This document shows positions 6,435 to 60,178 of a stretch of DNA of 64,000 nt, piece by piece; position 1 is the first letter of the stretch, and every line of letters begins with the position of its first letter. A program made the translations under genes and the position numbers. Source of the DNA: a virus. The stretch covers positions 36,075-100,074 of IMG/VR virus record IMGVR_UViG_3300025012_000045; one strand, 5' to 3'. The notes beneath the pieces were generated by a model. The model saw only the letters and a program-made list of their open reading frames with translations. It was not told the DNA's origin and made no database searches.

Positions 6435-7469
6435 ATGAATATTTTAACAAGAGACTATTTAAAGAAATTTCATAAATTATCAAATTATGATCTTTCAGGT
6501 GAAATTATAAAAGAAGAAAAGGAATTGCTTGAAGAAGGCTGGCTGGGAAGAATTGCTGGTCTTTTGGGTATTACCGTTGCCTCATTTAGTTCAGCAATAT
6601 CTCAAAAGGTGGATGTGCAACAATTATCAAATAAAGTTGATTCAGAAACATTAAATAAAATTGAAATGGCAATGAAAGATCCATCAGTTGAACAAAAACT
6701 CAATCAACTGGGTGTTCCTGATAATAATATTCAAAGAGTAATTAATAGATTAGAAAAAACAAGAAAAGTTAGTGGAGTTAAAGAAAAACAAGTTTTAAGT
6801 GATCAGGAATTAGTAAACTTATTAAAACGAGAGTGGAATTTAACTGGGGTACAAACTGATACAATAATTGATACTTTAAAAGTAATAGCACCAGATACCA
6901 CATCCTCTCAATACTTATTAAATTTTGGAGATTCTACATTTTTTGAAAGTGGTGGATATAATTTAAATAATCAAGAAATACAAAAAATAAATAATGTTGT
7001 TGATTTTATACAACAAGAAGGGAATGTTCTATTAAATATAACAATAGAAACTTCAACCGATAAACAAGGATTATCTATTAATTTACAAAATAAATTAGAA
7101 GATCTAGGTTATTCAAAAAATAATAATGGTCTTTCTCAAGCAAGAAATAATCAAATAAAACAAATATTAATTAAGCAAGGGATTAATGATAGTTTAATTG
7201 GACAGGTAATATTATCAGAACAAGGAACTCAAACAATTGATCAAAATGCAAGATATGTTAAGGTTAGATTTAATATTATTAATATTAAAAAAGATATAAC
7301 ATTTAAAGAGAAAGAAGAAATAAAAACAACATATAAAAATACTTATAATCTAATATATTTTTATGCCAAATCAAAACAAATAAAAGAAAAACCTAAAATT
7401 AAATTACCTTCTTGCAAAATAAAAATAAAATTGTTTAAAAAGGAAAGTTATTGCCCAGCATATCAATAA
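6435..7469 (+). CDS. leader-bearing protein with OmpA-like C-terminal domain
   Basis: FFESGGYNL...IETSTD...N..LSQARN...ARYV resembles OmpA_C; leader ending LLEE/G; TATTTATA at 6420. Confidence 0.6.
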   Translation: MNILTRDYLKKFHKLSNYDLSGEIIKEEKELLEEGWLGRIAGLLGITVASFSSAISQKVDVQQLSNKVDSETLNKIEMAMKDPSVEQKLNQLGVPDNNIQRVINRLEKTRKVSGVKEKQVLSDQELVNLLKREWNLTGVQTDTIIDTLKVIAPDTTSSQYLLNFGDSTFFESGGYNLNNQEIQKINNVVDFIQQEGNVLLNITIETSTDKQGLSINLQNKLEDLGYSKNNNGLSQARNNQIKQILIKQGINDSLIGQVILSEQGTQTIDQNARYVKVRFNIINIKKDITFKEKEEIKTTYKNTYNLIYFYAKSKQIKEKPKIKLPSCKIKIKLFKKESYCPAYQ

Positions 7470-7474
7470 AATTA

Positions 7475-8086
7475 TTAATTTTTATTAAAAACGTGCTCAG
7501 CATTATTTGTTGTTTTTTCACATATCCCATTAAATGTTGACCAATACATTTTAACTGATGAAGTAATTATTTTATTATTAAAATTTATTATGTATTTTTT
7601 TTCTATAATGCTACATGCGCCATATATTAGATTTTTATCTAATAAAAATTCATTATGTCCCCTTGAAGTTTTCCATCCATCCATAATTTTTTCTATAATA
7701 TAAAACATATCACGGATATTAGTATCATAAGTCCCAAAGTAAAAATTTTCACCCCAGCACATAATATCATTTTTATTTTTTACATATTTATTAAATCTAT
7801 CTTTTAATGTTTTCAATTGTAAAAAATTATCTTTTTGATTTTCTTTATGCCCAGCATATGCAATTATAGAATCTTTATCATCTATTATTGAATCGGTTTG
7901 TAGTGATAAATATGTTGAATGATGGACAGACATATTATATACTTCTTCGTTCCAAATAAGTTCATTTAGTCCATTTGATACTCTGTATTCATTAATTTTT
8001 TCAAATAATAGAGAATCATATTTGGTTTGTGAGAATAAATTAAACCAAATAAAAGTTAAAAATAATATCATTATAAGTTTTTTCAT
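7475..8086 (-). CDS. secreted CAP/SCP domain protein
   Basis: signal peptide; INEYR..NGL, HS, GEN, W..S.GH..LL. Confidence 0.8.
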   Translation of the reverse strand: MKKLIMILFLTFIWFNLFSQTKYDSLLFEKINEYRVSNGLNELIWNEEVYNMSVHHSTYLSLQTDSIIDDKDSIIAYAGHKENQKDNFLQLKTLKDRFNKYVKNKNDIMCWGENFYFGTYDTNIRDMFYIIEKIMDGWKTSRGHNEFLLDKNLIYGACSIIEKKYIINFNNKIITSSVKMYWSTFNGICEKTTNNAEHVFNKN

Positions 8087-8160
8087 TGTTTTTATGTTTT
8101 AATTATCAAATAAATATCATTTCATAATACAAAGGTAAGTATAATTTTTGACATATCCAA
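8084..8160 (-). repeat. 77-nt promoter/5'UTR cassette, copy 2
   Basis: 70/77 identical to 6311..6387. Confidence 0.85.
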
Positions 8161-8161
8161 A

Positions 8162-8644
8162 TTATTTCAAAGAAAAATCAATTATATTAACTAATTCATT
8201 ATCTAGAAATTCTTTGTTTATAGTACCGTCAGATAATTTTTTAGATACCCTATCAAAAAATCCCCTTACTAAAGGTATTAATCCCTCAATGTTAATATTT
8301 TCTTTTGAAACTAATCCTTCTTTTTTAATCATTGCTATCTCTATCCATTTTTCAAAATTTTCTTCTTCTGGTTCTACTGGTCCAGTATATAATAAATCAA
8401 AGTAGATTTCTTTTTTTAATCTTTTGTTATTAGGCTTTGTTCTATATATATTTAATTGAAGTAGTTTTCCTACTATTTCTTTTTTCCAGTGATTTACATT
8501 TTCTTTTTCATGTGGAAAAGTTATAATATAAAATATATGATTCAAAATATCATCAGAAATATTATTTAAAAGAATTTCCAGTCTTTTCCTCTCAACTGCC
8601 AATTCAGTCATAAGAATTGATTCGTATATGGACATTAATTTCAT
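8162..8644 (-). CDS. DUF29-like protein with short leader
   Basis: ILNHI...NHWKKEI pattern; leader MKLMSIYESILMTE. Confidence 0.5.
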   Translation of the reverse strand: MKLMSIYESILMTELAVERKRLEILLNNISDDILNHIFYIITFPHEKENVNHWKKEIVGKLLQLNIYRTKPNNKRLKKEIYFDLLYTGPVEPEEENFEKWIEIAMIKKEGLVSKENINIEGLIPLVRGFFDRVSKKLSDGTINKEFLDNELVNIIDFSLK

Positions 8645-8681
8645 TTTCTTTAAATTTAATATTTTTAATTGTTAATTAGAA

Positions 8682-8731: not shown

Positions 8732-9148
8732 TTAATAGTTAATTAATGTTTTCATTCTATTCAATTGTTCATATAAACCAGACCCATAATAAATTTTTTT
8801 ATTTATTTCTTCTAATATTTTTTTAAAATTAGTCCAATATTTTTTATCTTGTGGTTTAGATTTTTTTATTACTACTTCTAATTTTTCAATTAAACATTGA
8901 TTAATATCGTATTTATTACTTTCTTTCCAACACATATTATAAGCTTTTGTTTTTTCAAATTCTTTCATTTGAGCCGTATAAGTATCCTCACGAATTCCAA
9001 ACCTTTTTAAAATTTCTAGTATATCAGAATTATCTAATGTTTTTTTATCAAAATAAGTCCCACTCCCACCAAGTTCTCTTGATAATTTTTCTGCTGTACT
9101 TGCGGCTCTTATTAATGGCTCAAATTCATGTGGTTGTTTTTCTGGCAT
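8732..9148 (-). CDS. hypothetical protein with C-terminal copy of the leader motif
   Basis: ends LYEQLNRMKTLINY; TATTTATA at 9165-9172. Confidence 0.75.
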   Translation of the reverse strand: MPEKQPHEFEPLIRAASTAEKLSRELGGSGTYFDKKTLDNSDILEILKRFGIREDTYTAQMKEFEKTKAYNMCWKESNKYDINQCLIEKLEVVIKKSKPQDKKYWTNFKKILEEINKKIYYGSGLYEQLNRMKTLINY

Positions 9149-9315
9149 CTTAAATATATTTTTATATAAATATCACTTAAATATAAAAAATTAATTATTT
9201 TTGCTATTGACTTTTTCAAATATTATGTTTATCTTTGTATTATATATTAAAAAAATAAAGAACAATAAAATGAAATTTTTATTGCTATTCTATAATCTTT
9301 AGAATTAAATAAATT

Positions 9316-17151: not shown

Positions 17152-17209
17152 AAATAATAATTTAATAAATAAGTTTTTTAGTTAATATTTATATAAAAAA
17201 ATAATATAA

Positions 17210-18505
17210 ATGAATAGTAAATTAGATTTTGAAGAATACTTTGATATTGAACTGGCAAATTCAGATGATTATGATAAAAATATTATTAATCGTACAACTC
17301 ATATTGAAGATGATTTGGCAATATATTTTGATACAAATGATTCAAGGTGCTTCTCAGGTTTTAATAGTAATAATTTAACAACTCTTCTTTCTTTAAGTGC
17401 CTGGACTGGTGCCAATATTACAAATAATTTTACTCTTTATGATGTAGGATTAACAGGTATTGATAATGGTAGATTTAAATCATTAACAGGAGAAACTTTA
17501 AATATTAATACAGTAGATACAAAAATTCAATTATTTCAAATTACAGGGAAAACAGGTTCCACATCTTATAATATAACATCAGCAACAACAAACGGATATA
17601 TATATATATCACTTTCAGGGGGTGGAGGTTTTCAAGGATTTTATAAATTAGCAGGATATGACCAGTATAATATTTTCCCAAATAGAACAGAACTTGGATG
17701 GTATGTAGAACAATGGATAAAATATTCTGGTGTTTCAAATAATACAAATTCTAATTTCTTTTTTTATATGGGAGCAAAACAAGAGAATAAATTTTGGAAT
17801 ATTTTCAGTGGCGAGACGGGCCTCACCACAACTTCTGGAATTTCTATAAGTCCTTCTGTAAGCGCCAATACAGATCTGGATTTAAATGGAAATTGTATTG
17901 GATTTAGGTTTTCTGGTTCATCTTTAGGTGTCCGTTGGCTAAGCGGTACAACCGATTGTAATAATAATATAACAGGAATCACAATGCAAGAATCATATTC
18001 AAAACATGGCATATTTGATAATTTTTCTGGAAATTCCGATTCAACAGATTGGATAAATATTGGAATAAGATTTAGAAGATATAATTTAATTGATGATTGT
18101 GCAATAAAAAGTGGAACAACCGCATATAAAGGAGATTTAACATTTTATTTAAATGCCAGGCCAATATATGAAGTTAAAAATTTTGAAGAACCAATATTTA
18201 AATCATTAAACACACATAAAACAAAACAGCAGGGTGTCCCATTTAATTTATCATGGGGTTTTGGAAGTATTGGTTTAAAGGAATCTCAAACTTTTTCTGG
18301 TCCAGATAATTCTGATTCTGGTTTAACAATATCAAATAATTTTGATGGAAATTTAACTGGCGGATTAAGTCAATTAAGATTTTATGTGAAACCCTTATCA
18401 TTAGATAAAATCATTCATAATTTTGAGTTAGAAAAATCAAGATATAATCGTAATGAGAATTTCGGGTCAAGAGTTGTGAGAATAAATCGGGGGATATCCA
18501 CATAA
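17210..18505 (+). CDS. putative structural protein (LamG-like C-terminus)
   Basis: S/G/T/N-rich; GGLSQLRFY..PL....I.HNF; TATTTATA at 17186. Confidence 0.6.
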   Translation: MNSKLDFEEYFDIELANSDDYDKNIINRTTHIEDDLAIYFDTNDSRCFSGFNSNNLTTLLSLSAWTGANITNNFTLYDVGLTGIDNGRFKSLTGETLNINTVDTKIQLFQITGKTGSTSYNITSATTNGYIYISLSGGGGFQGFYKLAGYDQYNIFPNRTELGWYVEQWIKYSGVSNNTNSNFFFYMGAKQENKFWNIFSGETGLTTTSGISISPSVSANTDLDLNGNCIGFRFSGSSLGVRWLSGTTDCNNNITGITMQESYSKHGIFDNFSGNSDSTDWINIGIRFRRYNLIDDCAIKSGTTAYKGDLTFYLNARPIYEVKNFEEPIFKSLNTHKTKQQGVPFNLSWGFGSIGLKESQTFSGPDNSDSGLTISNNFDGNLTGGLSQLRFYVKPLSLDKIIHNFELEKSRYNRNENFGSRVVRINRGIST

Positions 18506-19207
18506 ATGGAAAATTTGAAAGAACAAATATCCAGAATGAAAGAATTGATTAATTATAATATTAATTATGGATATATAAATGAAGAAATGCAGATTTCTGA
18601 TGATTTTAATGAAGAAAATTTTATTTTAGAAAAAGAAAATAGAAGAGTTTATATAGATGTTGGAATTGATATACAAAATGAAAAAGAACATAAATCGTAC
18701 TTAATTGTACTTTTTACTAATAAGCAAGGGTTTGAAGAACTAATGTTTTATTTCATGGTTTTAGATAAGAATGATCGAGCAGTTCCTGGATTAGAAACTA
18801 TTTATGATAGAAAAATAGCAAATAAATATATTCCAGATGAATTAAAGGGAACTGGAAAACTTAAAGATAAAATAATAAAAATGACACAAAAATTATTAAA
18901 TATGGAAAATCCAGCAAGATTTATTGTTCAAACATATGAGGATTATAAAGATGAAAAACAATTAGATTGGCATCAGCCAATAATTGATTTATTATTAAAA
19001 AATGGATATATGCTAAAAAATAAAGGATTAACTTATGATAAAAAAAATTACTACTGGGAATTTGTTCAAGCAACTAAAGAAACATTACCAGAAGGATATG
19101 AGCCAATTAAATGGAAACCAAGAGATAAAGAATTTTATGATAATATTCGTGGGATATCGGAATCTATTGCCAAAAATATAAGAGAAAGAAATAAAAAAAT
19201 TATTTAA
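18506..19207 (+). CDS. leader-bearing hypothetical protein, paralog of 59480
   Basis: LKEQISRMKELINYNINYGYINEE leader. Confidence 0.8.
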   Translation: MENLKEQISRMKELINYNINYGYINEEMQISDDFNEENFILEKENRRVYIDVGIDIQNEKEHKSYLIVLFTNKQGFEELMFYFMVLDKNDRAVPGLETIYDRKIANKYIPDELKGTGKLKDKIIKMTQKLLNMENPARFIVQTYEDYKDEKQLDWHQPIIDLLLKNGYMLKNKGLTYDKKNYYWEFVQATKETLPEGYEPIKWKPRDKEFYDNIRGISESIAKNIRERNKKII

Positions 19208-19216: not shown

Positions 19217-19507
19217 ATGAAAATAAGATTAACCGAAAGTCAATTAAGACAATTAATAGAGAATATTATTAAAGAGGAGGATAAAGAATTTTCAACTAAA
19301 TTACTAAGTATTGATCCAATAACTGGTGAAAGGTCTTGGGATGTAAAATATAAAACAAATTTAAATACTATATATAAAGATATTGATGATATTGTAAATA
19401 AAATAGAAAAATTGGTTGTTAAAAATAGAAATGATTTGGAAGCAAAAGAATTATTGAAAATATCCAAATTATTGAGAAATAAATTTTCAAGGTATATATT
19501 AAAATAA
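19217..19507 (+). CDS. leader-bearing small protein
   Basis: MKIRLTESQLRQLIENIIKEE. Confidence 0.75.
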   Translation: MKIRLTESQLRQLIENIIKEEDKEFSTKLLSIDPITGERSWDVKYKTNLNTIYKDIDDIVNKIEKLVVKNRNDLEAKELLKISKLLRNKFSRYILK

Positions 19508-20326: not shown

Positions 20327-20728
20327 ATGATGCTATTAGAGGATATATTTAAGGAGATAATTACTGAAACGGTTGCTAGAGATAAAATAAATAGAGCAAT
20401 TGATGAACGTGATGTTGTAACTATATATTATAATGATCCTTCTGATGAGGTGTTAAATGGATATAGACGATGTGAAATTTGGTGCTATGGGCGTAATCAT
20501 TACAATAATGATGTTATTAGGGTATGGATATTACCAAAAAGTGTTTCAAAATCATACCCTCCAGGTAAACCATATGACCCGCTCACATTTAAACCTGGCT
20601 GGCGAATGATGAGGACTGACAGGATCAATAGTATTAGGCGCATAGGGTTGAAGATAAAACAACAAAGACCAAAATTTAATGCTCAAGATAAGGACATGCA
20701 AGTTGTATATAATTATATGAAAATATAA
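20327..20728 (+). CDS. stand-alone WYL-like domain protein with short leader
   Basis: IYY...R.CE..CYG...IRVW...GWRMMRTDRI. Confidence 0.7.
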   Translation: MMLLEDIFKEIITETVARDKINRAIDERDVVTIYYNDPSDEVLNGYRRCEIWCYGRNHYNNDVIRVWILPKSVSKSYPPGKPYDPLTFKPGWRMMRTDRINSIRRIGLKIKQQRPKFNAQDKDMQVVYNYMKI

Positions 20729-22204: not shown

Positions 22205-22606
22205 ATGAATATAGAAAATTTAAATCAAAAAATTGAAGAAGGAATTAAAAAACTGGTCAAAGAGAGGGCTAAATCAAAAAGTCAAAGGAAGTTATTTGCT
22301 TTGGCAAAATCAGTAAAATCTGGTGAAACACTAAGAAGTGAAGTATCAAAAGATGTATTGGATATTGCAGATAAAGTATCTGGAAAAGAAATTGATAAAT
22401 TTGCAAGTACAAAAGAAAAAGGATTACCAGAGAAAGTAAAAAAAGATAAAGTAGAAGAAACAAGTAATGACAATCTTGCACAGGCATATGGTGGAGACAG
22501 TAATTCTTGGCCATCTGGAACTGGGGAATGGAATAATTTAGAAGAAGAAAGTGAAATTCCAACATTAAATCTTGATGATGTTGATTTAACAGAAGATGAC
22601 AAATAA
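22205..22606 (+). CDS. DUF3008-like protein with leader
   Basis: AKSKSQRK...A...KSGE...FASTKEKGLPEKV. Confidence 0.7.
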   Translation: MNIENLNQKIEEGIKKLVKERAKSKSQRKLFALAKSVKSGETLRSEVSKDVLDIADKVSGKEIDKFASTKEKGLPEKVKKDKVEETSNDNLAQAYGGDSNSWPSGTGEWNNLEEESEIPTLNLDDVDLTEDDK

Positions 22607-23534
22607 AATTATAAAAATTAAAGAATCAGAACTAGTTCAATTATTAGTAGAAAGTTTAGGAGTTAATATTGATGTTGACATATTGTCAAAATTTTTAATA
22701 GATTATTTAAAAGATAAAAAATATGACCAACATATAATTAATAAGAATCAATTACTTGAACTAAATAAAGTTAATATAAATAAAATTATTATTGATTATA
22801 GTGATAAAAATCAGGTAGATTATTTTGATATTAAAAAATCAAGGAAAACAAATGATGGTGAAGTTCTTTATTTTCATTTTGACGATTTAAATCCTAATTC
22901 CATATATCATGAAATAAATCATGCATTGCAATTTTTTATTATGGGTAAAGAAAGAAATAAAGAACAATTAACATCAATAAAGGCATCAAGAATATCCAGA
23001 ATTTTTATTGATAAAAATAATGAAGTAATTAAAAGATTTTCTGATTTAATATATAAATCTACCGAGCAAGAAATTAATTCAGAGGTATCTGGTTTATATG
23101 GTGAACTAATAACACATCTTAGAAATAAAGGATGGAAAAAAGGTCAATTTAAAAATGATGAACATTTTAAATTAATATTTGAACAATATGTTAATAATAG
23201 TGAAGCATATAATATTGCATTAAATATGATTAATTATAATATTTTTGAAGAGTTTGATATTAAAAATTTAATAGGTATTGATGATTATGATAAAAGAGTT
23301 TATTTCACTATCATGCAAGATGTGATTAAATCAAAACCTTTTTATAGTGGAATATTAGATTTGTTTAGATTATTTAAAGAATTATTGACATATAAATATA
23401 ATCAAATGTTTAATGTGAATATTTTAACAGAAGAACAAGTTAATTCCTTAATGAAAAAATATCAATTATTTATTAATAAACAGGGAGAAAAATTAAAAAG
23501 AAAATTATTTAGACTATATTATTTATTTTTATAA
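22596..23534 (+). CDS. leader-bearing HExxH (putative zinc metallopeptidase) protein
   Basis: IKIKESELVQLLVE leader; YHEINHA plus downstream EINS. Confidence 0.6.
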   Translation: MTNKIIKIKESELVQLLVESLGVNIDVDILSKFLIDYLKDKKYDQHIINKNQLLELNKVNINKIIIDYSDKNQVDYFDIKKSRKTNDGEVLYFHFDDLNPNSIYHEINHALQFFIMGKERNKEQLTSIKASRISRIFIDKNNEVIKRFSDLIYKSTEQEINSEVSGLYGELITHLRNKGWKKGQFKNDEHFKLIFEQYVNNSEAYNIALNMINYNIFEEFDIKNLIGIDDYDKRVYFTIMQDVIKSKPFYSGILDLFRLFKELLTYKYNQMFNVNILTEEQVNSLMKKYQLFINKQGEKLKRKLFRLYYLFL

Positions 23535-23617
23535 TTTAACTGATATTTATAATAAAATAAATTATGAAAAATAAAAAAATAATAAGATTAACAGAAAGTC
23601 AATTAAAATATTAGATA

Positions 23618-24967
23618 ATGAAAACTAAAGATAAAAAACAAATAATAAAAGAGGAAGCAAGTCCAAGATATTTACCACAATTATCAGCCCCATTCACAGA
23701 TATTGTTAATGGGTTGGAACAAGAAAATATTTCTTGGAGACCTGTAATTGTCAGAGTTGGACAACTTAAACCACTTCAAAATACGGTTGAAGTTTCAAAA
23801 ATGAAAGATATTTCTCAAGAATTTAAAAACGCTGGTGAATATAATATGGATCCCGTTTTCATTTCTAATGATGACTATATTTTGGACGGTCACCATCGGA
23901 CTGCTGGGCTTATTAATTCCCTTGGAAAAGATGCAAAAGTCAAATGTATAAGAATAGATTTGGATGAAAAAGAAGCAGTAAGAACAATGAATAAAATAGA
24001 GGACATATACGAATATAAACAAAAAAATAATAAAAATGTTAAAAGATTAAAAAAATCTGATTTGGAAGAATATGCAAAAAAAGTTATTGAGCAAAATTTG
24101 GAAGAAATTGATTTAAATGATGATGATACTATGAATCATGTTGATTTGTTAGATGAATATGTGGCTTATGCTGAAACCCATCATGAAGATGTAACTATTT
24201 ACAATTTTATTGATTTTACTGATAGAGAGTATCCAGATATAGATCCAAAAATAGTACGTCTGGCAATGAAAGATGTGGAAATAATAGAAAGAGAAAATGA
24301 AGATAATCTTGGAAGAATTTCTGAAAATGATTTGGAAGAAGGTCCAAGAACCCATTCTTCTTTAAGAACACAAAGATTGAAATCTCAACCGGAAAAACAA
24401 TATGCCAAATCACGCATAAGACCAGCAGAAAGAGATTTATCAGAAGAAAATATTGAACAAGAGAAAAATTATGTTGTAAGTGCATTTAATAGAAATACTA
24501 ATCAAAGAGAAATTTTAAATAATCCATCAACAAGAGAAGAAGCGGAGGGATTTAAAAGAGATTATGGAAAAATGGGAATGGGAAAGTATAGTGATTTTCA
24601 AGTTGAACCAAGAGCAGTTTATGATGCCAAAATGGAAAGGCATAGAGGATTTGAAGATTTTTATTCATTAAATGAAAAAGATATTTCAGAAGACAAAATT
24701 AATAAATATTTAAAATTAAAGGAGAAATATGATATAAAAGGTTTACCTTCTGAAGAACTTGATTTGAATGAGCAAGAAAGATTTATGGAAGAATTTAATT
24801 TAGGTGATAATGAAGATAATGTAAATAATCCTGGAAGAAGTGATGAAATAAATAAAAAAAATACTGTAAGATTGTCAGAAATACAATTAAAAGAAATAGT
24901 TGAAAAATTAAAAAAAGAGTATGCAACCCCATCAGTACCTATTGCTAATGAAATGCCTTCTATGTAA
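23618..24967 (+). CDS. ParB/Srx-like N-terminal domain protein; upstream in-frame leader from 23564 cut by TAG
   Basis: LKPLQ...PVFISNDDYILDGHHR; acidic tail rich in [IL]xE. Confidence 0.7.
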   Translation: MKTKDKKQIIKEEASPRYLPQLSAPFTDIVNGLEQENISWRPVIVRVGQLKPLQNTVEVSKMKDISQEFKNAGEYNMDPVFISNDDYILDGHHRTAGLINSLGKDAKVKCIRIDLDEKEAVRTMNKIEDIYEYKQKNNKNVKRLKKSDLEEYAKKVIEQNLEEIDLNDDDTMNHVDLLDEYVAYAETHHEDVTIYNFIDFTDREYPDIDPKIVRLAMKDVEIIERENEDNLGRISENDLEEGPRTHSSLRTQRLKSQPEKQYAKSRIRPAERDLSEENIEQEKNYVVSAFNRNTNQREILNNPSTREEAEGFKRDYGKMGMGKYSDFQVEPRAVYDAKMERHRGFEDFYSLNEKDISEDKINKYLKLKEKYDIKGLPSEELDLNEQERFMEEFNLGDNEDNVNNPGRSDEINKKNTVRLSEIQLKEIVEKLKKEYATPSVPIANEMPSM

Positions 24968-28016: not shown

Positions 28017-28817
28017 ATGAATAATTTTAAAAATTTGTATGAACAACTGGAGAGAATGGTTGATTTGATTAATTATAATAGTGGGGATTATATTGAAGAA
28101 GATAATGTTGCCATATTATATGAAGGATTAATAAGAACAGTTTCTTTAGGATTGGCAAAAGTAATGTTGAATAGATGGTATAAAACATATAATATCCCCG
28201 ATTATCATGGCGAAGCACTTCAATATAGAAATGTAAATATAAGACAAGACGATACTTTAAGTATGTACATATTAGATGTGGTGGGTGATAAAGAGAAGAT
28301 AGAAGATTTATTATCGTATATTAATAATTTAGGATATGAAGTTTCTTTAATTTTAACTAAAAAAATAAATGGTAATAAAAATGAAACAAAATTTACAAAA
28401 GATAATTTATATTCTTTTGCGGGCCAAAGTAATAATCTAGAATACATATATATTGTTTTGGAAGCAAAATTTGATTTAGAAATAGATGAAAAAGATTGGC
28501 CAGATAAGTTATATCATGTTACAAGACAAGATGTTTTACATAAAATAAAAAAAATAGGAATAACTCCACGAACAGAATCAAAAAAATCAACACATACAGA
28601 AAGAGTTTATTTTGCAAAAAATTATAATTCTGCTAAAATTATTTATCATCAATTTAAAAAAGATTATTCAAATCAGAAATTTGCCATATTAGAAATTAAT
28701 CCAAAATTGGTTAATTATTTAAGATTATTTGACGATCCAAATTTTAAAGGATATGGTTATTATGGGTTGGTGAATGTGCCACCGGATGCAATAAAAATAG
28801 TAAAAGAAAATATATGA
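28017..28817 (+). CDS. leader-bearing ADP-ribosyltransferase-fold (Tpt1/KptA-like) protein
   Basis: LYEQLERMVDLINY leader; LYHVT...I...GI.P...RVYFA...ILEI...NVPP..I. Confidence 0.65.
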   Translation: MNNFKNLYEQLERMVDLINYNSGDYIEEDNVAILYEGLIRTVSLGLAKVMLNRWYKTYNIPDYHGEALQYRNVNIRQDDTLSMYILDVVGDKEKIEDLLSYINNLGYEVSLILTKKINGNKNETKFTKDNLYSFAGQSNNLEYIYIVLEAKFDLEIDEKDWPDKLYHVTRQDVLHKIKKIGITPRTESKKSTHTERVYFAKNYNSAKIIYHQFKKDYSNQKFAILEINPKLVNYLRLFDDPNFKGYGYYGLVNVPPDAIKIVKENI

Positions 28818-30467: not shown

Positions 30468-30471
30468 AAAT

Positions 30472-39175: not shown

Positions 39176-39188
39176 TTTATATAATGAA

Positions 39189-40403
39189 ATGAAAAAATTT
39201 AAAACCATAGAAGAAGAATTGTCCAGAATGAAAGAATTATCTGGCATGAAGGAAGATCAAAAATTAATTGATAAATCTGGATTTGCAAGAATAAATAGAA
39301 TGTTATGGGGAGGAGTTTCATCAATTAATTCTGTTGGAATATTAACAGCAGAAAATCCTCAAGGGCAACAGTTATCTCCAGAAGAAAATAATAAAAGAAT
39401 GAAAGATTTAAAAACTGCTTTAGGGACTTATGGGTTTATTGATGTTAGAGGAAAATTTAGGACTAAAGAAGGTAATAATTTAATTGAAAATTCTCTTATT
39501 ATTCCTAATTTACCTAAAGAAACATTACTCTGGTTACAAAAAAAATTTGAACAAGAATCTGTTATTTATGGAGAAAGAAAAGATAAAAATACATTTTTAT
39601 TTGAATATATTAAAAACGGTAATATTGAAGATAAACAAGAAGTCATTTTATCAAAGATGGAAGGTAATGAAGAATATTATTCATATTTACCAAAAACCAG
39701 TAAAAAAGATGGAGAAAAAATAAAATATGAAAGAAGTTTCAGAATACCATTTTTTGATAAAGTTGGTTATAGAAATCCCACAGGTCAAGGAACGTGGGAA
39801 ATAATTGAATATTATGGATTCCTGGGTATAAATTTAGATAATTTACCGAAAGATAATAAGGAAATTAATTTATTGTTAAATGAAATTAAAAAAAATGAGA
39901 AAGAATTGTTGATAGAAGGATTAATTCCAAAATATTATTGGGTAAGAAGAGGCATAATAAATAATTATATTAAAACAATAAAAGACATTATAGAACAAAT
40001 TAATAATAGTTATTTTATTGATATTGAGAATTTACCAAAGGGTAATGAAAAAGTATTAAACATATTAAAGGAAATAAGAGAAAATAAAAAAGAGTTAATT
40101 ATAAATAATTCACTTTCTGATGATTATATTGTTAGAAAATATAGAATAAAAGAATTAAAAAATGAATTGAAAGATTTGATTAAAGAAAATAAAATAGTTA
40201 AATTAACAGAAGAACAGTTGGAAGAAATAACAAAAGATCAAGAAGTATATAATTATTTTTTAACATATGATAAACCATTTATATATTCAAGCCCAGAAGT
40301 TCATTATAAAGAATCACTAAATAAGAGTAAAGAATTGTTTAATCATATTCCAAAAAATTTTAAAAAATTTTGTTTTGAGGAGTATGAAAGACAAAAAAAT
40401 TAA
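39189..40403 (+). CDS. leader-bearing DUF3293-like protein, paralog of 45600
   Basis: IEEELSRMKELSG leader; ILTAENP.G.....EN..R...ENS...FEQESVIY. Confidence 0.75.
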   Translation: MKKFKTIEEELSRMKELSGMKEDQKLIDKSGFARINRMLWGGVSSINSVGILTAENPQGQQLSPEENNKRMKDLKTALGTYGFIDVRGKFRTKEGNNLIENSLIIPNLPKETLLWLQKKFEQESVIYGERKDKNTFLFEYIKNGNIEDKQEVILSKMEGNEEYYSYLPKTSKKDGEKIKYERSFRIPFFDKVGYRNPTGQGTWEIIEYYGFLGINLDNLPKDNKEINLLLNEIKKNEKELLIEGLIPKYYWVRRGIINNYIKTIKDIIEQINNSYFIDIENLPKGNEKVLNILKEIRENKKELIINNSLSDDYIVRKYRIKELKNELKDLIKENKIVKLTEEQLEEITKDQEVYNYFLTYDKPFIYSSPEVHYKESLNKSKELFNHIPKNFKKFCFEEYERQKN

Positions 40404-44538: not shown

Positions 44539-45294
44539 ATGAAAGAACATAAAAGTTTTGAAGAATATGTTACTAGATTTAGAGAATTGGCAGGTCTTAA
44601 ACCTGATGATAACCCAATTGATTTTTTACCAAAACAAATTCCTGCTGAAGAATATTTAACAGAAGATAAAATAAAAGAGTTAAATGAAAGTAGTTTAACT
44701 AGAATACGACAACATATATTAAATCACGATATTACAACAATAAGTGCATGGAGAGATAAAAATGAAAATTGTGTAGAATATAGAGAAGGTGCAGAGAGAA
44801 ATAAAATTTTTACAAGAGAAGAAAAAAATGAAAGGAATTTGGAATTAAGTTCTGCATTATTGAAAAAGAGATATGGTGTTACATATATTAGAGGAATATC
44901 ACAAGAAGGAAAACAGATAGTTCAGGAAAATAGTTATCTCGTTGTTAATTTAAATAATGATGAAAAATTTATTGATAATGTAAAGAAATTGGGGCAATAT
45001 TATTGTCAGGATTCTGTACTAATAAAAGAAAAAAATAATGAAAATGCATATTTAATTGGAACAAATAATTTTCATAGATTGGGACTTAATAAAAAACAAA
45101 TATTAGGTAAATTTCATCCAGGAATAGAAAATGAACTCATGTCAAAAATACATGGAAGGCCATTTTATTTTGGTGAGAATGTAGATAGAGAGGGGCCAAT
45201 ACAATTTGAAATATATGATGAATTTAGTATTGGTGCAAGACAAGCAGTTACAAAAACATCAGAAAAAATTTTAAATGAAATATTTAAAAAATGA
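44539..45294 (+). CDS. leader-bearing DUF3293-like protein, paralog of 46838
   Basis: FEEYVTRFRELAG...LNE/SSLTRI; ISAWR, ENS.LVVN, QDSVL. Confidence 0.7.
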   Translation: MKEHKSFEEYVTRFRELAGLKPDDNPIDFLPKQIPAEEYLTEDKIKELNESSLTRIRQHILNHDITTISAWRDKNENCVEYREGAERNKIFTREEKNERNLELSSALLKKRYGVTYIRGISQEGKQIVQENSYLVVNLNNDEKFIDNVKKLGQYYCQDSVLIKEKNNENAYLIGTNNFHRLGLNKKQILGKFHPGIENELMSKIHGRPFYFGENVDREGPIQFEIYDEFSIGARQAVTKTSEKILNEIFKK

Positions 45295-45599: not shown

Positions 45600-46820
45600 A
45601 TGAATAAATTTAAAACATTAAATGAAGAAATAGACAGAATAAAAGAATTATCTGGAATTGAGAAAAAAGAATCAACTCAATTAATTGATGAATCTGGATT
45701 TGCCAGAATAAATAGAATGTTATGGGGGGGAGTCCCATCAATTAATTCTGTTGGAATATTAACAGCAGAAAATCCCCAAGGGCAACAGTTATCTCCAGAA
45801 GAAAATAATAAAAGAATGAAAGATTTAAAAACTACTTTGGGGACTTATGGGTTTATTGATGTTAAGGGAAAATTTAGGACTAAAGAAGGTAATAATTTAA
45901 TTGAAAATTCTCTTATTATTCCTAATTTACCCAAAGAAACATTATTCTGGTTACAAAAAAAATTTGAACAAGAATCTGTTATTTATGGGAAAAGAAAAGA
46001 TAAAAATACATTTTTATTTGAATATATTAAAAACGGTAATACTGAAGATAAACAAGAGGTTATTTTATCAAAGATGGAAGGTAATGAAGAATATTATTCG
46101 TATTTACCAAAAACCAGTAAAAAAGATGGAGAAAAAATAAAATATGAAAGAAGTTTCAGAATACCATTTTTTGATAAAATTGGTTATAGAAAATCCACTA
46201 ATCAAGGAACGTGGGAAATAACTGAACATTATGGATTTTTAGATATGAATTTAGAAGATTTACCAAAAGACAATAAAGAAATAAATTTATTATTAAATGA
46301 AATTAAAAAAAATGAGAAAGAATTATTGATAGAAGGATTAATTTCAAAATATTATTGGGTAAGGAGAGGTATAATAAATGAATCTATTAAGATAATAAAA
46401 GAAATTTTGGATCAACTTGAAAATGGATTTATTAATATTGATATTGATAATTTACCAAAAGGTAATGAGGAAGTATTAATATTATTAAAAAATATAAGAG
46501 AAAATAAAAAAAGATTGATTGTAAATGATTCATTATCCAATGATTATATTGGAAAAAAACATGAAATAAATGAATCAATCAGAAGATTAAAAGAACTTAT
46601 AAAAGAAAATAAGATATTTAAATTAACAGAAGAACAATTGGAAGAAATAACAAAAGACCAGGAAATATATAATTATTTTTTGATAAATGATAAACCGTTT
46701 ATCCATGCAACTGCCGAACAACATTATAATCAATCAAAAGAAAAAAGTTTGGAATTATTCAATCACATACCAAAAAATTTTAAACAATTTTGTTTTGAAG
46801 AATATGAACGTAATAAATAA
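45600..46820 (+). CDS. leader-bearing DUF3293-like protein, paralog of 39189
   Basis: LNEEIDRIKELSG leader; core nearly identical to 39189. Confidence 0.75.
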   Translation: MNKFKTLNEEIDRIKELSGIEKKESTQLIDESGFARINRMLWGGVPSINSVGILTAENPQGQQLSPEENNKRMKDLKTTLGTYGFIDVKGKFRTKEGNNLIENSLIIPNLPKETLFWLQKKFEQESVIYGKRKDKNTFLFEYIKNGNTEDKQEVILSKMEGNEEYYSYLPKTSKKDGEKIKYERSFRIPFFDKIGYRKSTNQGTWEITEHYGFLDMNLEDLPKDNKEINLLLNEIKKNEKELLIEGLISKYYWVRRGIINESIKIIKEILDQLENGFINIDIDNLPKGNEEVLILLKNIRENKKRLIVNDSLSNDYIGKKHEINESIRRLKELIKENKIFKLTEEQLEEITKDQEIYNYFLINDKPFIHATAEQHYNQSKEKSLELFNHIPKNFKQFCFEEYERNK

Positions 46821-46837: not shown

Positions 46838-47524
46838 ATGAATAAATACAAAACATTAAATGAAGAAATAAATAGAATAAGAGAATTATCTGGATTAGAT
46901 ACAACTATTGAAGAAAGTTCACTTAGCAGAATATTTGAACATTTATCAAAACACGATATTGCCATGATGACAGCATTTAGAAAAGAAAATATAGACTGTC
47001 TTGATGAAGAAAAAAATACAAAAGGAATTATTACAAAAGAAGATAATTTAGTAAGAAATAAAAAATTACAAGTATCATTATTATCTTTAGATTATAGTGT
47101 TACTGCAATAGATGGTTCTGTAATAAAAAATTTTGGTAAAGAAAATGAAAGGGAATTTAAAGAAAATAGTTTTTTAGTTGTTAATTTATATGATGATGAA
47201 AAATTTATTAATAACATAATAAAACTTGGACAATATTTTTGTCAGGACAATGTTTTAATAAAAGAAAAGGAAAAAGAAAATGCTTATTTAATTGGAACTA
47301 ACAATTCAAACGGTCCAGGATTAAATCAAAGATATGATTTGGGAAAATATAAACCAGGAATAGAATCACAATTTATGTCAAAAATAAAAGGAAGACCGTT
47401 TTATTTTGAACAATATGATAATTTTAATATTGGGGCCAAACTTATAATAACTAATGAATCTAAAGAGATTTTAGAAGAGATAGAAAAATATAATATTAAT
47501 GATATAAAATTAAAAAAATTATGA
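46838..47524 (+). CDS. leader-bearing DUF3293-like protein, paralog of 44539
   Basis: LNEEINRIRELSG...IEE/SSLSRI. Confidence 0.7.
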   Translation: MNKYKTLNEEINRIRELSGLDTTIEESSLSRIFEHLSKHDIAMMTAFRKENIDCLDEEKNTKGIITKEDNLVRNKKLQVSLLSLDYSVTAIDGSVIKNFGKENEREFKENSFLVVNLYDDEKFINNIIKLGQYFCQDNVLIKEKEKENAYLIGTNNSNGPGLNQRYDLGKYKPGIESQFMSKIKGRPFYFEQYDNFNIGAKLIITNESKEILEEIEKYNINDIKLKKL

Positions 47525-58140: not shown

Positions 58141-58165
58141 AATTTTTATTTATTTATATTTTTAA

Positions 58166-58281
58166 AATAAAATCCCTCACATTTATTTTGAAGATTACAC
58201 AATGATAGTCATTGGAAAAGAATAAATGATATTGGGATTTTATTATGTTTATTTTTTAACTATCATATTATATAATCTTCA
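58166..58281 (-). ncRNA. structured 5'UTR element (possible pseudoknot)
   Basis: nested stems AAAATCCC/GGGATTTT and CATTTATT/AATAAATG; loop complementary to the 5' segment. Confidence 0.45.
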
Positions 58282-58362
58282 TTATATAAATATCACATTA
58301 AATAGCAAAAGACCATTTACTTTGAAGTAATTTTTATTATATTTACATATTAGTTGAAAATT

Positions 58363-59430
58363 ATGAAATTTATTGATTTACAAGCAGAATATGAGTATTT
58401 TAAAAAAGATATTGACAAAATTATATCAGAGGTATTAAATTCTGGTCAATATTTATTTGGAAAACAATTAGAACAATTAGAAATTAATTTTCCTAAATTA
58501 TTTGGTAAAAAATATGGAGTTGCTGTTAAAAATTGTACTGATGCCATAATTCTTGTTTTAAAAAGAATTTATAAACCAGGAATGCCAATAATCCTGCCAA
58601 ATTTTACTGCACATCCAGACGGGGTTGCTTGTAAAAATGTTACTTCAAATCTTTATTATGTTGATGTTGATTCTTCTTTTACCATTGACGTTAATAAGCT
58701 TCCTTCAGAAATTAAAAACGGAATTATTGTTCCAGTTCATTTGTTTGGGAATAATGCTAATTTATCTCTAATTGAAAAATATGCAAAAGAAAATAATCAT
58801 ATTATTATTGAGGATTGTGCCCAATCCACTGGATCAGGAAGTGGTTTAGATGGTGATTATTCTGTGTTTTCTTTTTATCCGACTAAACCCTTGAATTCGG
58901 CTGGTGATGGTGGAATGATTTTAACTGATAATAAGGAAGATATGGAATATTTCAAAAAAATAAGATTTTATGGTCAATATAATAATAAAGTAGAATTACA
59001 GGGGGGCGTGAATAGCAGAATGGATGAATTTCAATCAGCCATAATAAACGTAAAAATAAATAAATTTCAAAAATTAAATGATGTTAGAATATCTATTGCA
59101 AATAGATATAAAAAAATTGTAAAAGGGATGAAGATAAATGAATATGGGGTAGGACTTACAAGAAATCCAAAATGTGTTTATCATCAATTTCCTTTATTAT
59201 TTAATAATAGAGATAAAATTATTAAAGAATTAAATAAAAAAGAAATTCCTTTTATGATACATTATCCATATCATGTATCTGAAATGGAACCATTAAAAGG
59301 GAAATATAATAAAGTTGATTATAGAGTTAATGATAAAATTATTTCTTTACCATGTCATCCATTTTTAAAAGAGATAGAAATTCAACAAATAGAAGAGTTT
59401 TTGGAAGAATTTAAACAGTATGAGGTTTAA
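58363..59430 (+). CDS. DegT/DnrJ/EryC1/StrS sugar aminotransferase
   Basis: PVHLFG, EDCAQS.G, FSFYPTKPL...GDGG, NSRMDE.Q. Confidence 0.9.
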   Translation: MKFIDLQAEYEYFKKDIDKIISEVLNSGQYLFGKQLEQLEINFPKLFGKKYGVAVKNCTDAIILVLKRIYKPGMPIILPNFTAHPDGVACKNVTSNLYYVDVDSSFTIDVNKLPSEIKNGIIVPVHLFGNNANLSLIEKYAKENNHIIIEDCAQSTGSGSGLDGDYSVFSFYPTKPLNSAGDGGMILTDNKEDMEYFKKIRFYGQYNNKVELQGGVNSRMDEFQSAIINVKINKFQKLNDVRISIANRYKKIVKGMKINEYGVGLTRNPKCVYHQFPLLFNNRDKIIKELNKKEIPFMIHYPYHVSEMEPLKGKYNKVDYRVNDKIISLPCHPFLKEIEIQQIEEFLEEFKQYEV

Positions 59431-59479
59431 TTTTGTGTTCCTTAAATTTTTTTAATAAAAATAGGTATTTATAATAGAA

Positions 59480-60178
59480 ATGAAAGACCAAATATCCAGA
59501 ATGAAGGAATTAATAAATTATAATATTAATTATGGTTATATTAATGAAGAAATGATAACTTCTGATAATTTTAAAAATAATAATTTTATAAAACAAAAAG
59601 AAATTAGATCTGTTATATTAGAAGTTGGAATTGATCCAGAAAATGAAAAAGAATATAGAATAGTTTTAATATTATCTTTTACAAATAAAGGTGGGTATGA
59701 AGAACTTGTATTTGCCTTTTCATTATTAGATAAAGATAATCAGTTTGTAAAAGGAAAAGAAAGTATTTATAATAGAGAAGAAGTAAATAAATATTTACCA
59801 AAAGAATTACAAAAAAGTATTATTTTCTTTGGTAAACTAAAAGAAATGTTTAAAAAATTAATAACAATGGAAAAACCAATCAGATTCTTCATTGAAACAT
59901 ATGAAGATTATAAAAATGAAAAATTAATAAACGCATATGGGCCAATTATTGATTTAATATTGAAAAATGGATATATGTTAAAAGATAAAGGAATAACACA
60001 TGATAAAAAGAAATATTTCTGGGAATTTATTCAAGCAACCAAACAAACACTGCCAGAAGGATATGAACCATTTGATATTTCAAAAGTTAAAAAAGATGAC
60101 GCATATTGGCAACATAGAAAAGAACTTACAATGGAAGCAGTTAGACTGATGTTAGAGAGTGAGAAAAAAGTTATTTAA
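59480..60178 (+). CDS. leader-bearing hypothetical protein, paralog of 18506
   Basis: QISRMKELINYNINYGYINEE identical leader; TATTTATA 59466. Confidence 0.8.
   Translation: MKDQISRMKELINYNINYGYINEEMITSDNFKNNNFIKQKEIRSVILEVGIDPENEKEYRIVLILSFTNKGGYEELVFAFSLLDKDNQFVKGKESIYNREEVNKYLPKELQKSIIFFGKLKEMFKKLITMEKPIRFFIETYEDYKNEKLINAYGPIIDLILKNGYMLKDKGITHDKKKYFWEFIQATKQTLPEGYEPFDISKVKKDDAYWQHRKELTMEAVRLMLESEKKVI

What the first reader, a model, noticed from the sequence alone, without database searches (positions are those of the whole stretch)
6435..60178. Portable leader peptides on about 14 unrelated proteins: candidate capsid-loading, protease-released effector system
Seen: three leader classes on unrelated domains. 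Class A, E[EQ][IL]xR[MI][KR]xL(SG|INY): 18506 and 59480 (QISRMKELINY), 28017 (LYEQLERMVDLINY), 39189 (IEEELSRMKELSG), 45600 (LNEEIDRIKELSG), 46838 (LNEEINRIRELSG), 44539 (FEEYVTRFRELAG), weakly 6435 (KKFHKLSNY), and at the extreme C-terminus of 8732 (LYEQLNRMKTLINY-stop). Class B, I[RK][LI][TK]ES[QE]L: 19217, 22596, 23564, with echoes near the C-termini of 23618, 39189 and 45600. Class C, short ML..I[YF]..I..E: 8644, 20327. Nearly every leader ends in an [ILV]-x-E-like site right at the domain boundary (YINEE/M, LLEE/G, ILYE/G, LIDE/S, LNE/S, IEE/S, IITE/T, LLVE/S, IIKEE/A, LVKE/R). Payloads are ART-like, WYL, ParB, HExxH, OmpA-like, DUF3293-, DUF3008- and DUF29-like. Many follow a TATTTATA motif. 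Established: T4 internal proteins carry a short N-terminal capsid-targeting sequence removed by gp21, which cuts after [IL]-x-E. Inference: a modular address tag that lets this phage load an exchangeable set of effectors into the head for injection with the DNA. Unlike T4, the tag appears to work at either terminus. I cannot tell whether these motifs are already described in related huge phages.
Basis: partly seen in the sequence, partly recalled or inferred. Interest (0 to 1): 0.9.

Follow-up and report, generated by a model that had tools for sequence, protein, structure and literature searches.

The report
Scaffold-tail tags on phage cargo proteins
An uncultured, very AT-rich T4-type giant phage puts a short helix that copies the tail end of its head-scaffold protein onto many unrelated accessory enzymes. 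This most likely loads them into the capsid for injection, a new version of a trick known from phage T4, but it has not been tested at the bench.

Summary
The repeated leaders are real. Class A (core R-[MIF]-[KRV]-[ED]-L-x-[GNY]) occurs 11 times in the 100-kb contig against 0.03 expected, always at a protein end (10 N-terminal, 1 C-terminal). Class B (I-T-E-S-Q-[LF]-K-R-L-I) occurs on 7 proteins. The "14 unrelated proteins" collapse to about 8-9 payload families. Class C is not supported as a portable tag.

The contig is about 30% of a T4-type jumbo phage and lacks head genes. Close relatives carry a gp21-type protease, a scaffold-position gene and a gp23-type capsid gene. That scaffold-position protein ends in the class A motif (...QIKRMKDLMNY...). 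The same R-[IM]-x-[DE]-L-[IM] tail closes the scaffold in all 76 relatives read.

In eight further relatives all 11 profile hits are at a protein terminus, four of them at the extreme C-terminus. Payloads include SAM-lyase-fold, Tpt1/ART-fold, OmpA-like and HExxH proteins.

Best reading: class A is a scaffold-tail mimic that addresses cargo to the prohead, like the T4 capsid targeting sequence. Cleavage, packaging and the role of class B are inferred, not shown. The scan noted a similar scaffold-tail tag in another genome (e1-6011499).

The parts
18506..19207 (+). Cargo family F1 (233 aa, function unknown). Class A leader at aa 6-17 (EQISRMKELINY).
   Evidence: A1 profile E 2e-11. Paralogs at 59480 and genome 8166-8816. 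Starts directly after the 431-aa gene 17210-18505, which has TATTTATA upstream.
59480..60178 (+). F1 paralog. Class A leader at aa 3-14.
   Evidence: 66% identical to the ortholog in relative G005. TATTTATA at 59466-59473. The leader differs from 18506 by 5 synonymous and 1 non-synonymous codon out of 22.
28017..28817 (+). Tpt1/KptA-like ADP-ribosyltransferase-superfamily protein. Class A leader at aa 7-21 (LYEQLERMVDLINYN).
   Evidence: AF2 model: residues 1-38 are flexible (helix 7-18) and the domain starts after LYE36|G. Top PDB fold matches are Tpt1/KptA. The leader is almost invariant in 9 orthologs: identity 0.73 against 0.37-0.45 in the middle of the protein.
39189..40403 (+). DUF3293/SAM-lyase-family protein with a long C-terminal extension. 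Class A leader (EEELSRMKELSGM). The ORF could start at GTG 39156.
   Evidence: (PF11697 41 bits).
45600..46820 (+). Paralog of 39189 (81% identical). Class A leader (LNEEIDRIKELSGI).
46838..47524 (+). SAM-lyase-fold protein. Class A leader (LNEEINRIRELSGL).
   Evidence: Pfam PF23780 30 bits. AF2: leader helix 7-17, low-confidence linker 18-27, domain from residue 28. Best PDB folds are phage SAM lyases 6ZM9, 8BB1, 6ZNB and 7OCK. Most homologs elsewhere lack the leader.
44539..45294 (+). SAM-lyase-family paralog. Class A leader (FEEYVTRFRELAGL).
   Evidence: (PF23780 37 bits).
8732..9148 (-). 138-aa protein with the class A tag at the extreme C-terminus (tag = 8735-8797, KIYYGSGLYEQLNRMKTLINY-stop).
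   Evidence: (E 2e-10). In alignment A5 the tail lines up with the scaffold tail of G005, KVYSDPQLENQIKRMKDLMNY. TATTTATA at 9165-9172(-).
6435..7469 (+). OmpA-like protein with a transmembrane segment. The N-terminus (KKFHKLSNYDLSG) is only a degenerate class A-like motif.
   Evidence: Pfam OmpA 29.5 bits. Not picked up by the A1 profile. The ortholog in G005 is 76% identical and has the same N-terminus. TATTTATA at 6420-6427.
19217..19507 (+). 96-aa protein with a class B leader (MKIRLTESQLRQLIENIIKEE).
   Evidence: A2 profile E 1e-14.
22596..23534 (+). HExxH protein with a class B variant leader (IIKIKESELVQLLVESLG).
   Evidence: E 4e-12. Paralog at genome 30631-31527. Ortholog in G005.
23564..24967 (+). 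Class B leader mini-ORF (23564-23614) ending in an in-frame TAG, followed by the ParB-like gene 23618-24967. A class B-like 'echo' lies at 24866.
   Evidence: ParBc_2, weak; phrog_2859.
20327..20728 (+). 133-aa protein ('class C'). In relatives G008 and G012 its payload family is longer and ends in a class A tag.
   Evidence: L201 and L202 share the ...Y-x-G-P-x-x-E-V... core and end in ...IKRLKKLITY-stop and ...IKRIKELLYN-stop.
8162..8644 (-). 160-aa protein ('class C' N-terminus MKLMSIYESILMTE). Its tag status is unresolved.
   Evidence: (phrog_31822).
17186..17193 (+). TATTTATA, a late-promoter-like word ahead of the 17210-18505 / 18506 / 19217 gene run.
   Evidence: The same word, in the same orientation, precedes the portal and scaffold-position genes in G005.

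Best explanation
Class A is a capsid-addressing peptide copied from the C-terminal tail of the phage's head-scaffold protein. A short helix is fused through a flexible linker to otherwise unrelated enzymes, usually at the N-terminus and sometimes at the C-terminus. It would let them dock where the scaffold tail docks, either on the scaffold core or on the inner face of the gp23-type shell. They would then be trapped in the prohead.

The gp21-type protease would cut the tag off at nearby [IL]-x-E sites, as it is expected to do to the scaffold, whose tail is preceded by a conserved L-N-E|S site. The freed cargo would stay in the head and enter the host with the DNA. The cargo includes SAM-lyase-fold, Tpt1/ART-fold, HExxH and OmpA-like proteins.

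Class B is probably a second address of the same kind, but its partner is unknown.

Shown: the motifs, their strictly terminal position, their presence on unrelated payloads, their match to the scaffold tail, and the T4-type head genes in relatives.

Inferred: binding, packaging, cleavage and injection.
For: (1) The motif is strongly non-random and strictly terminal: 11 hits against 0.026 expected. In 8 further relatives 11/11 profile hits are terminal, 4 of them at the extreme C-terminus.

(2) A profile built only from this contig's leaders finds the C-terminus of the ORF between protease and capsid gene in relative G005. It is the second-best hit in that proteome (E 5.8e-5).

(3) All 76 related scaffold tails read carry R-[IM]-x-[DE]-L-[IM] about 10 residues from the end, e.g. 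...FSRMKELMSKIK. A conserved [LI]-[NS]-E-S sits about 20 residues before the end.

(4) The lineage has T4-type head genes. The G005 protease matches Peptidase_S77 at 79 bits and is 30% identical to T4 gp21. The capsid protein matches gp23.

(5) The tag is modular. The SAM-lyase family occurs without a leader, with class A, or with a class B-like leader in different genomes. Genome 2365-2925 and 30057-30629 share only the 22-residue leader. G005 has a leaderless paralog of tagged genes.

(6) Selection acts on the peptide. The leader is nearly invariant in orthologs whose middle part is 37-45% identical. Differences between paralog leaders are mostly synonymous. Upstream DNA is not conserved.

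(7) AF2 models show a leader helix and a flexible linker ahead of the folded domain.

(8) Several tagged genes share the oriented TATTTATA word with the portal, scaffold-position and large virion genes.

(9) Established precedent: T4 CTS peptides of 10-19 residues target unrelated internal proteins and Alt to the core and are removed by gp21. Alt is trimmed at both ends (PMC9026906, PMC5694885, PMC12373910).
Against: - No virion proteomics exist and no cleavage has been observed.
- The window's own contig holds no head genes (CheckV completeness 30%). The scaffold link rests on relatives that are 40-84% identical in shared proteins.
- The scaffold is identified by synteny and composition only. 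hhalign against T4 gp22 is not significant, and there is no PHROG hit.
- [IL]-x-E sites occur by chance in half of all proteins.
- The four SAM-lyase-like genes lack the late-promoter-like word.
- Class B has no counterpart in the head module. It was not found in T4, Syn9 or P-SSM2.
- The complete distant relative G001 has few tagged proteins.
Confidence: 0.55

Rival explanations
1. The shared helix is a docking motif for some other common partner, such as a chaperone, the protease as an inhibitor or regulator, or scaffold-scaffold oligomerisation. It would then tie these proteins to head assembly or its timing without making them packaged, injected cargo.
For: The motif match to the scaffold tail shows a shared partner, not what that partner is. 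The SAM-lyase-like cluster lacks the late-promoter-like word. A conserved core protein beside the replication genes also carries the motif.
Against: The payloads are typical counter-defence or host-modifying enzymes with no evident role in assembly. The tags sit on flexible linkers like T4 CTSs. T4 precedent exists for exactly this architecture (PMC9026906).
Confidence: 0.17
2. There is no common function. The similar termini are generic amphipathic helices that arise easily in a K/E/I/L/N-rich, 25% GC proteome, or are remnants of common ancestry among paralogs.
For: Many copies are paralogs. The proteome is compositionally biased. Class C and the 6435 copy are weak. The strict motif is confined to this lineage in 1.84 billion representative proteins.
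Against: Shuffles that keep composition give 0.03 hits against 11 observed. All hits are terminal in 10 genomes. Unrelated folds carry the tag. The leader is more conserved than the payload. The scaffold match is independent of the training set.
Confidence: 0.1
3. The repeats are DNA-level mobile promoter/leader cassettes that drive recombination, like the PeSL cassettes of T4-type phages. The peptide would be a by-product.
For: T4-type phages shuffle genes through short regulatory cassettes (PMC2839356). Earlier notes on this contig propose cassette-like islands (e1-6062885).
Against: Sequences upstream of the leaders are not alike. Leader codons differ synonymously. The motif also sits at C-termini and in the scaffold.
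Confidence: 0.05
4. Class A mimics the helix-turn of the ribosomal protein L7/L12 C-terminal domain and targets a host translation factor.
For: The only non-lineage hit of the exhaustive profile search is a protein with three ...IKRVRELTGMGLKEAKD... repeats. I recognise these from memory as L7/L12-CTD-like.
Against: This is one marginal hit (E 3e-4, helped by three repeats). It does not explain the scaffold tail or the strictly terminal position.
Confidence: 0.03

Closest known systems
Phage T4 capsid targeting sequence (CTS) on internal proteins IPI, IPII, IPIII and Alt, removed by the gp21 prohead protease
   Same: A short terminal peptide is shared by otherwise unrelated, non-essential proteins. 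The head is T4-type, with an S77 protease and a gp23-type shell in the lineage. [IL]-x-E sites sit at the tag-payload boundary. The cargo has an anti-defence or host-modifying flavour, including an ART-superfamily enzyme that parallels Alt. In T4 too, the CTS (MKTYQEFIAE|A) resembles a scaffold terminus: gp22 starts MLKEQLIAE|A.
   Different: There is no sequence likeness to the T4 CTS. The tag is longer, about 17-22 residues plus a linker. It copies the scaffold's C-terminal tail rather than its N-terminus. It is used at either end of the cargo. There are at least two unrelated tag classes. The repertoire is far larger: about 18 tagged genes on 100 kb, against 4 in T4. Nothing has been verified experimentally.
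C-terminal capsid-binding tails of scaffolding proteins (P22 gp8; the herpesvirus scaffold, whose tail is also carried by the protease precursor), and engineered P22 scaffold-tail cargo fusions
   Same: A short terminal helix of the scaffold mediates docking. A second protein bearing the same tail is co-incorporated. A protease site just before the tail is expected to release it.
   Different: These comparisons rest on my own knowledge and were not tested here. In those systems the natural passengers are one or two assembly proteins, not a family of exchangeable effectors.
Encapsulin cargo-loading (targeting) peptides
   Same: Short terminal peptides, usually C-terminal and sometimes N-terminal, address diverse enzymes to the inside of an HK97-fold shell (PMC7925596, PMC8229669).
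   Different: Encapsulins are not viruses, have no scaffold or protease, and do not release cargo. There is no sequence similarity.
Long propeptides of phiKZ/SPN3US-type giant phage ejection proteins
   Same: Giant-phage head proteins carry N-terminal propeptides thought to target them to the prohead, cut by a gp21-related protease (PMC5694885).
   Different: Those propeptides are 80-160 residues long, are not one shared short motif, and no scaffold counterpart is known there.

Membership tests
T4-type CTS / internal-protein system | One short terminal peptide shared by proteins with unrelated mature parts | tested here: met
   Class A sits on at least 5 unrelated payload families and class B on at least 4.
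T4-type CTS / internal-protein system | T4-type head: gp23-family capsid protein, gp21 (S77) prohead protease, gp22-position scaffold | tested here: inconclusive
   Absent from the window's own 100-kb fragment. Present in close relatives G005-G007 and in distant relatives G001-G004. The scaffold is identified by synteny only.
T4-type CTS / internal-protein system | Tag removed by the prohead protease after [L/I]-x-E | not testable with these tools
   Sites are present in 16/16 tagged proteins but also in 50% of untagged ones. Proof needs semi-specific virion mass spectrometry.
T4-type CTS / internal-protein system | Cargo present in the virion and injected with the DNA | not testable with these tools
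   No cultured member and no proteome.
T4-type CTS / internal-protein system | Sequence relatedness to the T4 CTS (MKTYQEFIAE) | tested here: not met
   The A1 and A2 profiles give no hit on the T4 head proteins tested (gp67, gp68, gp21, gp22, gp23, gp24, Alt, Inh). IPII and IPIII were read and compared by eye only. Class B is absent from T4, Syn9 and P-SSM2.
T4-type CTS / internal-protein system | Late expression together with head genes | tested here: inconclusive
   The oriented TATTTATA word is shared with the portal, scaffold-position and large virion genes for some tagged genes, but not for the SAM-lyase cluster. The word itself is not enriched.
Scaffold-tail mimic (works like a scaffold C-terminal docking helix) | Tag matches the scaffold's own terminal motif | tested here: met
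   E 5.8e-5 in the G005 proteome. The tail is conserved in 76 scaffolds. The 8732 C-tail aligns to the scaffold tail over 21 residues.
Scaffold-tail mimic (works like a scaffold C-terminal docking helix) | Tag binds capsid or scaffold | not testable with these tools
   Only single-chain folding was on hand, so no co-folding was possible.
Phage SAM lyase (payload of 44539, 46838; 39189 and 45600 more distantly) | Pfam S-AdoMet_lyase match and SAM-lyase fold | tested here: met
   PF23780 at 37 and 30 bits, cut-off 28. The top seven PDB fold hits are phage SAM lyases. Catalytic activity was not tested.

The most novel reading that the evidence does not exclude
T4-type jumbo phages of this clade use a natural plug-in cargo-loading peptide derived from the scaffold's C-terminal tail. 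It would bind the inner face of the gp23-type shell or the scaffold core, much as encapsulin targeting peptides bind their shell, and would work from either end of a protein. Class B would be a second, orthogonal address. Together they would let the phage pre-load a large, fast-changing arsenal (SAM lyases, an ART-fold enzyme, a metalloprotease, cell-wall binders) for delivery at the moment of DNA entry. The same logic (CTS = scaffold-terminus mimic) would also explain how the classical T4 CTS works.
Probability: 0.3. Interest if true: 0.8.

Novelty: new variant of a known kind. Interest (0 to 1): 0.64.

Why it matters
How the T4 capsid targeting sequence finds the prohead core has not been explained mechanistically. 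The review read here (PMC9026906) says only that the propeptides have affinity for the core.

A lineage in which the tag is visibly a copy of the scaffold tail gives a concrete, testable answer: cargo competes for the scaffold's docking site. The lineage also offers a natural peptide that works from either terminus.

The finding also suggests that giant T4-type phages inject many more enzymes than T4 does, including SAM lyases that would disarm SAM-dependent restriction and BREX-type defences before any phage gene is expressed. Such tags could also be used to predict virion cargo directly from metagenomes.

Tried and rejected
- **Phage collection BLAST.** A 10-kb stretch, protein 45600 and the bare leaders found nothing.
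- **Peptide-pattern scans of IMG/VR.** Scans for 45600 and 18506 found nothing.
I could not read the contigs of the nearest SAM-lyase homologs or the 112-kb near-identical contigs.
- **Leader-profile searches of the big protein sets.** A 45-residue alignment returned only orthologs of the same families. The exhaustive HMM search gave 8 hits, all from this lineage except one L7/L12-like repeat protein. The breadth of payloads outside the lineage is therefore still unknown.
- **hhalign of the scaffold family against T4 gp22** was not significant.
- **Class A in four large distant relatives** gave only marginal hits at first. Regexes found few tags in the complete G001.
- **Class B** was not found in T4, Syn9 or P-SSM2, with no positive control. 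My recollection that ITESQL-type N-termini are common in marine T4-like phages is unverified.
- **Class C** was rejected as a portable tag.
- **Promoter word.** Enrichment of TATTTATA was rejected. Only its orientation bias stands.
- **Co-variation.** No simple co-variation was seen between scaffold-tail subtype and tag subtype.

Full report
**What the DNA is.** The window is the last 64 kb of a single 100,074-bp IMG/VR virus record (24.8% GC). CheckV rates it about 30% complete, which implies a genome of roughly 330 kb. The contig encodes ribonucleotide reductase, a DnaB-type helicase, an SSB-like protein, HNH and homing endonucleases, methyltransferases and glycosyltransferases. It also holds several very large late-type proteins of 1633, 1015 and 790 aa. 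It has no capsid, portal or protease gene.

**The observation.** I translated all claimed ORFs and scanned a 152-ORF gene set of the whole contig.
- The class A core R-[MIF]-[KRV]-[ETD]-L-[ASIMV]-[GNY] occurs 11 times in six frames. Every hit is in a called gene: ten at residues 7-24 and one as the last residues of 8732-9148(-). Residue shuffles of the same proteins give a mean of 0.026 hits.
- A profile built from the leaders separates 11 members (E below 5e-9) from everything else (next best 0.016).
- Class B ([ILV]-[TKS]-E-x-[QE]-[LF]-x-x-[LI]-[IV]) marks seven N-termini. The strict regex gives 5 hits against none in shuffles.
- All-against-all BLAST shows that many carriers are paralogs. 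Class A sits on about five unrelated payloads plus the C-terminal case. Class B sits on about four.
- Two proteins (genome 2365-2925 and 30057-30629) share nothing but the 22-residue leader.
- Class C is only two sequences. 6435 is a degenerate class A look-alike that the profile does not pick up.

**Payloads.**
- 44539 and 46838 match S-AdoMet_lyase (PF23780), and 39189 matches DUF3293. 45600 was not scanned; it is placed with them as the 81%-identical paralog of 39189.
- An AF2 model of 46838 (pLDDT 80) has phage SAM lyases as its seven best PDB matches.
- The model of 28017 best matches Tpt1/KptA RNA 2'-phosphotransferases, members of the ADP-ribosyltransferase superfamily.
- 6435 has an OmpA domain. 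22596 carries HExxH. 23618 is weakly ParB-nuclease-like.
- WYL, DUF3008 and DUF29 were not detected.

**The tag is a module under selection at the protein level.**
- Among 62 homologs of 46838, the conserved domain begins at E-S-S-L-S-R. Most have only 5-15 residues before it. The four closest carry the class A leader, one has a related ...ERIGELMG... version, and one carries a class B-like IRLTEGELRGIV.
- Relative G005 has a leaderless paralog of two class B-tagged genes.
- In nine orthologs of 28017, the leader is nearly invariant (pairwise identity 0.73) while the middle of the protein is 0.37-0.45.
- Leader codons of paralogs differ mostly synonymously, and the upstream DNA is unrelated. 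This argues against a DNA cassette.
- Both AF2 models show a leader helix, then a low-confidence linker, then the fold.

**Finding the head genes.** The 1633-aa protein has 63 relatives in IMG/VR, on contigs up to 362 kb. Those large relatives have gp23-family capsid genes and Peptidase_S77 (gp21-type) proteases, so the clade is T4-type.

A degenerate DNA pattern for R-[MI]-K-E-L-I-N-Y found three close relatives (G005-G007, 43-91 kb). Their shared proteins are 40-84% identical to the window's. All three carry the S77 protease.

In G005 the gene order is:
- terminase, then a class B-tagged gene, then the portal;
- further on, the protease at 82346-83092 (30% identical to T4 gp21, E 2e-23);
- a 422-aa acidic ORF at 83182-84450;
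- the gp23-type capsid gene at 84480-86174.

**The key result.** The 422-aa ORF sits where T4 has gp22. It ends in ...DPQLENQIKRMKDLMNYSTNGK. The class A profile, trained only on this contig's leaders, hits that C-terminus at E 6e-5. It is the second-best hit in the G005 proteome.

The protein family is conserved in G001, G002 and G004, with invariant K-R-x-x-D-L near the end. I fetched 80 related loci and read 76 tails. Every one carries R-[IM]-x-[DE]-L-[IM] about ten residues from the stop, for example ...FSRMKELMSKIK and ...STKRIMDLINRVEKR. Each is preceded by a conserved [LI]-[NS]-E-S.

The C-terminal tag of 8732 aligns with the G005 scaffold tail over 21 residues.

The scaffold identity rests on synteny and composition. 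hhalign against T4 gp22 is not significant, and there is no PHROG hit.

**Generality and either-end use.**
- In distant relatives, a conserved protein of about 250 aa beside the giant lysin-like genes starts with ...LLKEELKRFKVLENY... This is the counterpart of genome 22723-23061.
- A conserved 430-530-aa protein in the same relatives starts with a class B-like MNKKIKITEAQYNRLI.
- A broader class A profile run on eight further relatives gave 11 hits, all terminal. Seven are N-terminal, six of them from the ...NEINERMK[EQ]LMGI... family; one of those six was scored internal by the script and is N-terminal only if the MKKAII start is used. Four are at the extreme C-terminus...NENIKRIKELLYN...SETIKRLKKLITY...FEEIKRIKNLMN and ...EEEIEKMKKISSYNEKTQ.
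- Two of the C-terminally tagged proteins belong to the payload family of window gene 20327.
- The complete distant relative G001 has only a few such tags. The large repertoire is therefore a feature of this sub-lineage.

**Cleavage and timing.**
- By anchors shared with T4 gp23, read by eye because BLAST aligned only the IIRR/MVRR segment (IAQ.F upstream, the IIRR/MVRR pair downstream), the G005 capsid propeptide probably ends near M-L-N-E|S. This resembles the L-N-E|S, I-E-E|S and I-D-E|S boundaries of the SAM-lyase group and the scaffold's L-N-E|S.
- However, [IL]-x-E occurs at residues 15-50 in 50% of untagged proteins (16/16 in tagged). The stricter [IL]-x-E-[SGAT] occurs in 7% against 31%. 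The sites fit the model but do not prove it.
- TATTTATA lies within 40 nt upstream, in the gene's orientation, of 19-20 genes in each of G000 and G005. The opposite orientation gives 7-8. In G005 these genes include the portal, the scaffold-position gene and large virion-type genes.
- On this contig they include the 1633/1015/790/431-aa genes plus tagged genes 6435, 8732, 28017, 59480 and one DUF6934 gene. The word itself is not enriched, and the SAM-lyase cluster lacks it.

**Comparison with what is known.** T4 internal proteins and Alt carry 10-19-residue N-terminal CTS peptides. These target them to the prohead core and are removed by gp21. Foreign proteins fused to the CTS are packaged, and Alt is trimmed at both ends. 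IP repertoires vary between T-even phages, and T4 Ip1-3 inhibit GmrSD-type restriction enzymes (PMC9026906, PMC5694885, PMC12373910).

The present tags do not resemble the T4 CTS in sequence. Reading T4 itself, however, IPII and IPIII start MKTYQEFIAE|A and the scaffold gp22 starts MLKEQLIAE|A. A scaffold-terminus mimic may therefore be the general principle, with this clade using the scaffold's other end.

The exhaustive profile search found the strict motif only in this lineage. It found no bacterial carriers at E of 1e-3 or below.

**Verdict.**
- The capsid-loading reading is substantially strengthened for class A by the scaffold-tail match and the T4-type head genes of relatives.
- Packaging, cleavage and injection remain inferences. 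Class B has no identified partner. Class C is not a tag.
- This is a new variant of the T4 CTS principle.
- The scan has noted similar leader systems, including one 'scaffold-tail tag', on other genomes. I reached the scaffold result before reading that note.

Noticed in passing
window 23564-23620: A complete class B leader (MKNKKIIRLTESQLKY) is separated from the ParB-like ORF by a single in-frame TAG followed by ATA ATG. It could be a recently broken leader, a sequence variant, or read-through/recoding of TAG in a late gene.
   Followed up: partly
window 40197 and 24866: Class B-like motifs lie inside proteins: KIVKLTEEQLEEI about 70 residues before the end of 39156-40403 (and its paralog 45600), and VRLSEIQLKEIV near the end of the ParB-like protein. 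They may be relics of gene fusions, or internal joints of polyprotein-like cargo.
   Followed up: no
P0091, not in the window: The only non-lineage hit of the class A profile is a 224-aa protein with a transmembrane start and three repeats of ...GNKIEAIKRVRELTGMGLKEAKDYVESL... From memory this looks like the ribosomal L7/L12 C-terminal domain.
   Followed up: no
L019:9950-16273 and genome 24514-29415 (L002:6514-11415, minus): The conserved 1633-aa protein, with no Pfam or PHROG hit here, is 2107 aa in a relative, where it ends in endolysin-like domains. Its neighbours (867-1015 aa) have OmpA or tail-lysin-like parts. This looks like a module of giant cell-wall-active virion proteins, with tagged accessory genes inserted between them on this contig.
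   Followed up: partly
L088:8802-11750 and L088:12602-16549 (G005): The terminase large subunit (982 aa) and portal (1315 aa) of the close relative are oversized. They carry helicase- or HNH-like inserts, probably inteins. Window ORF 30933-32834 also shows an intein-like start.
   Followed up: no
window 45291-45590: A 99-aa ORF starts MKKYKSFEEYVIDTL... This is the first half of the 44539 leader (KSFEEYV) without the R-F-R-E-L-A-G half. Many SAM-lyase homologs elsewhere start M-K-[TS]-F-x-[EQ]-[FY]-L-x-E|S, which resembles the T4 CTS.
   Followed up: partly
L066, L067, L068 (G002, G001, G004): A conserved 69-75-aa protein in the distant relatives starts ...KTVKIKESHLVDLIDNIVNEAV... (class B-like) and continues as a coiled coil. 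It might be a small head-core protein that carries the class B address, but its context was not examined.
   Followed up: no
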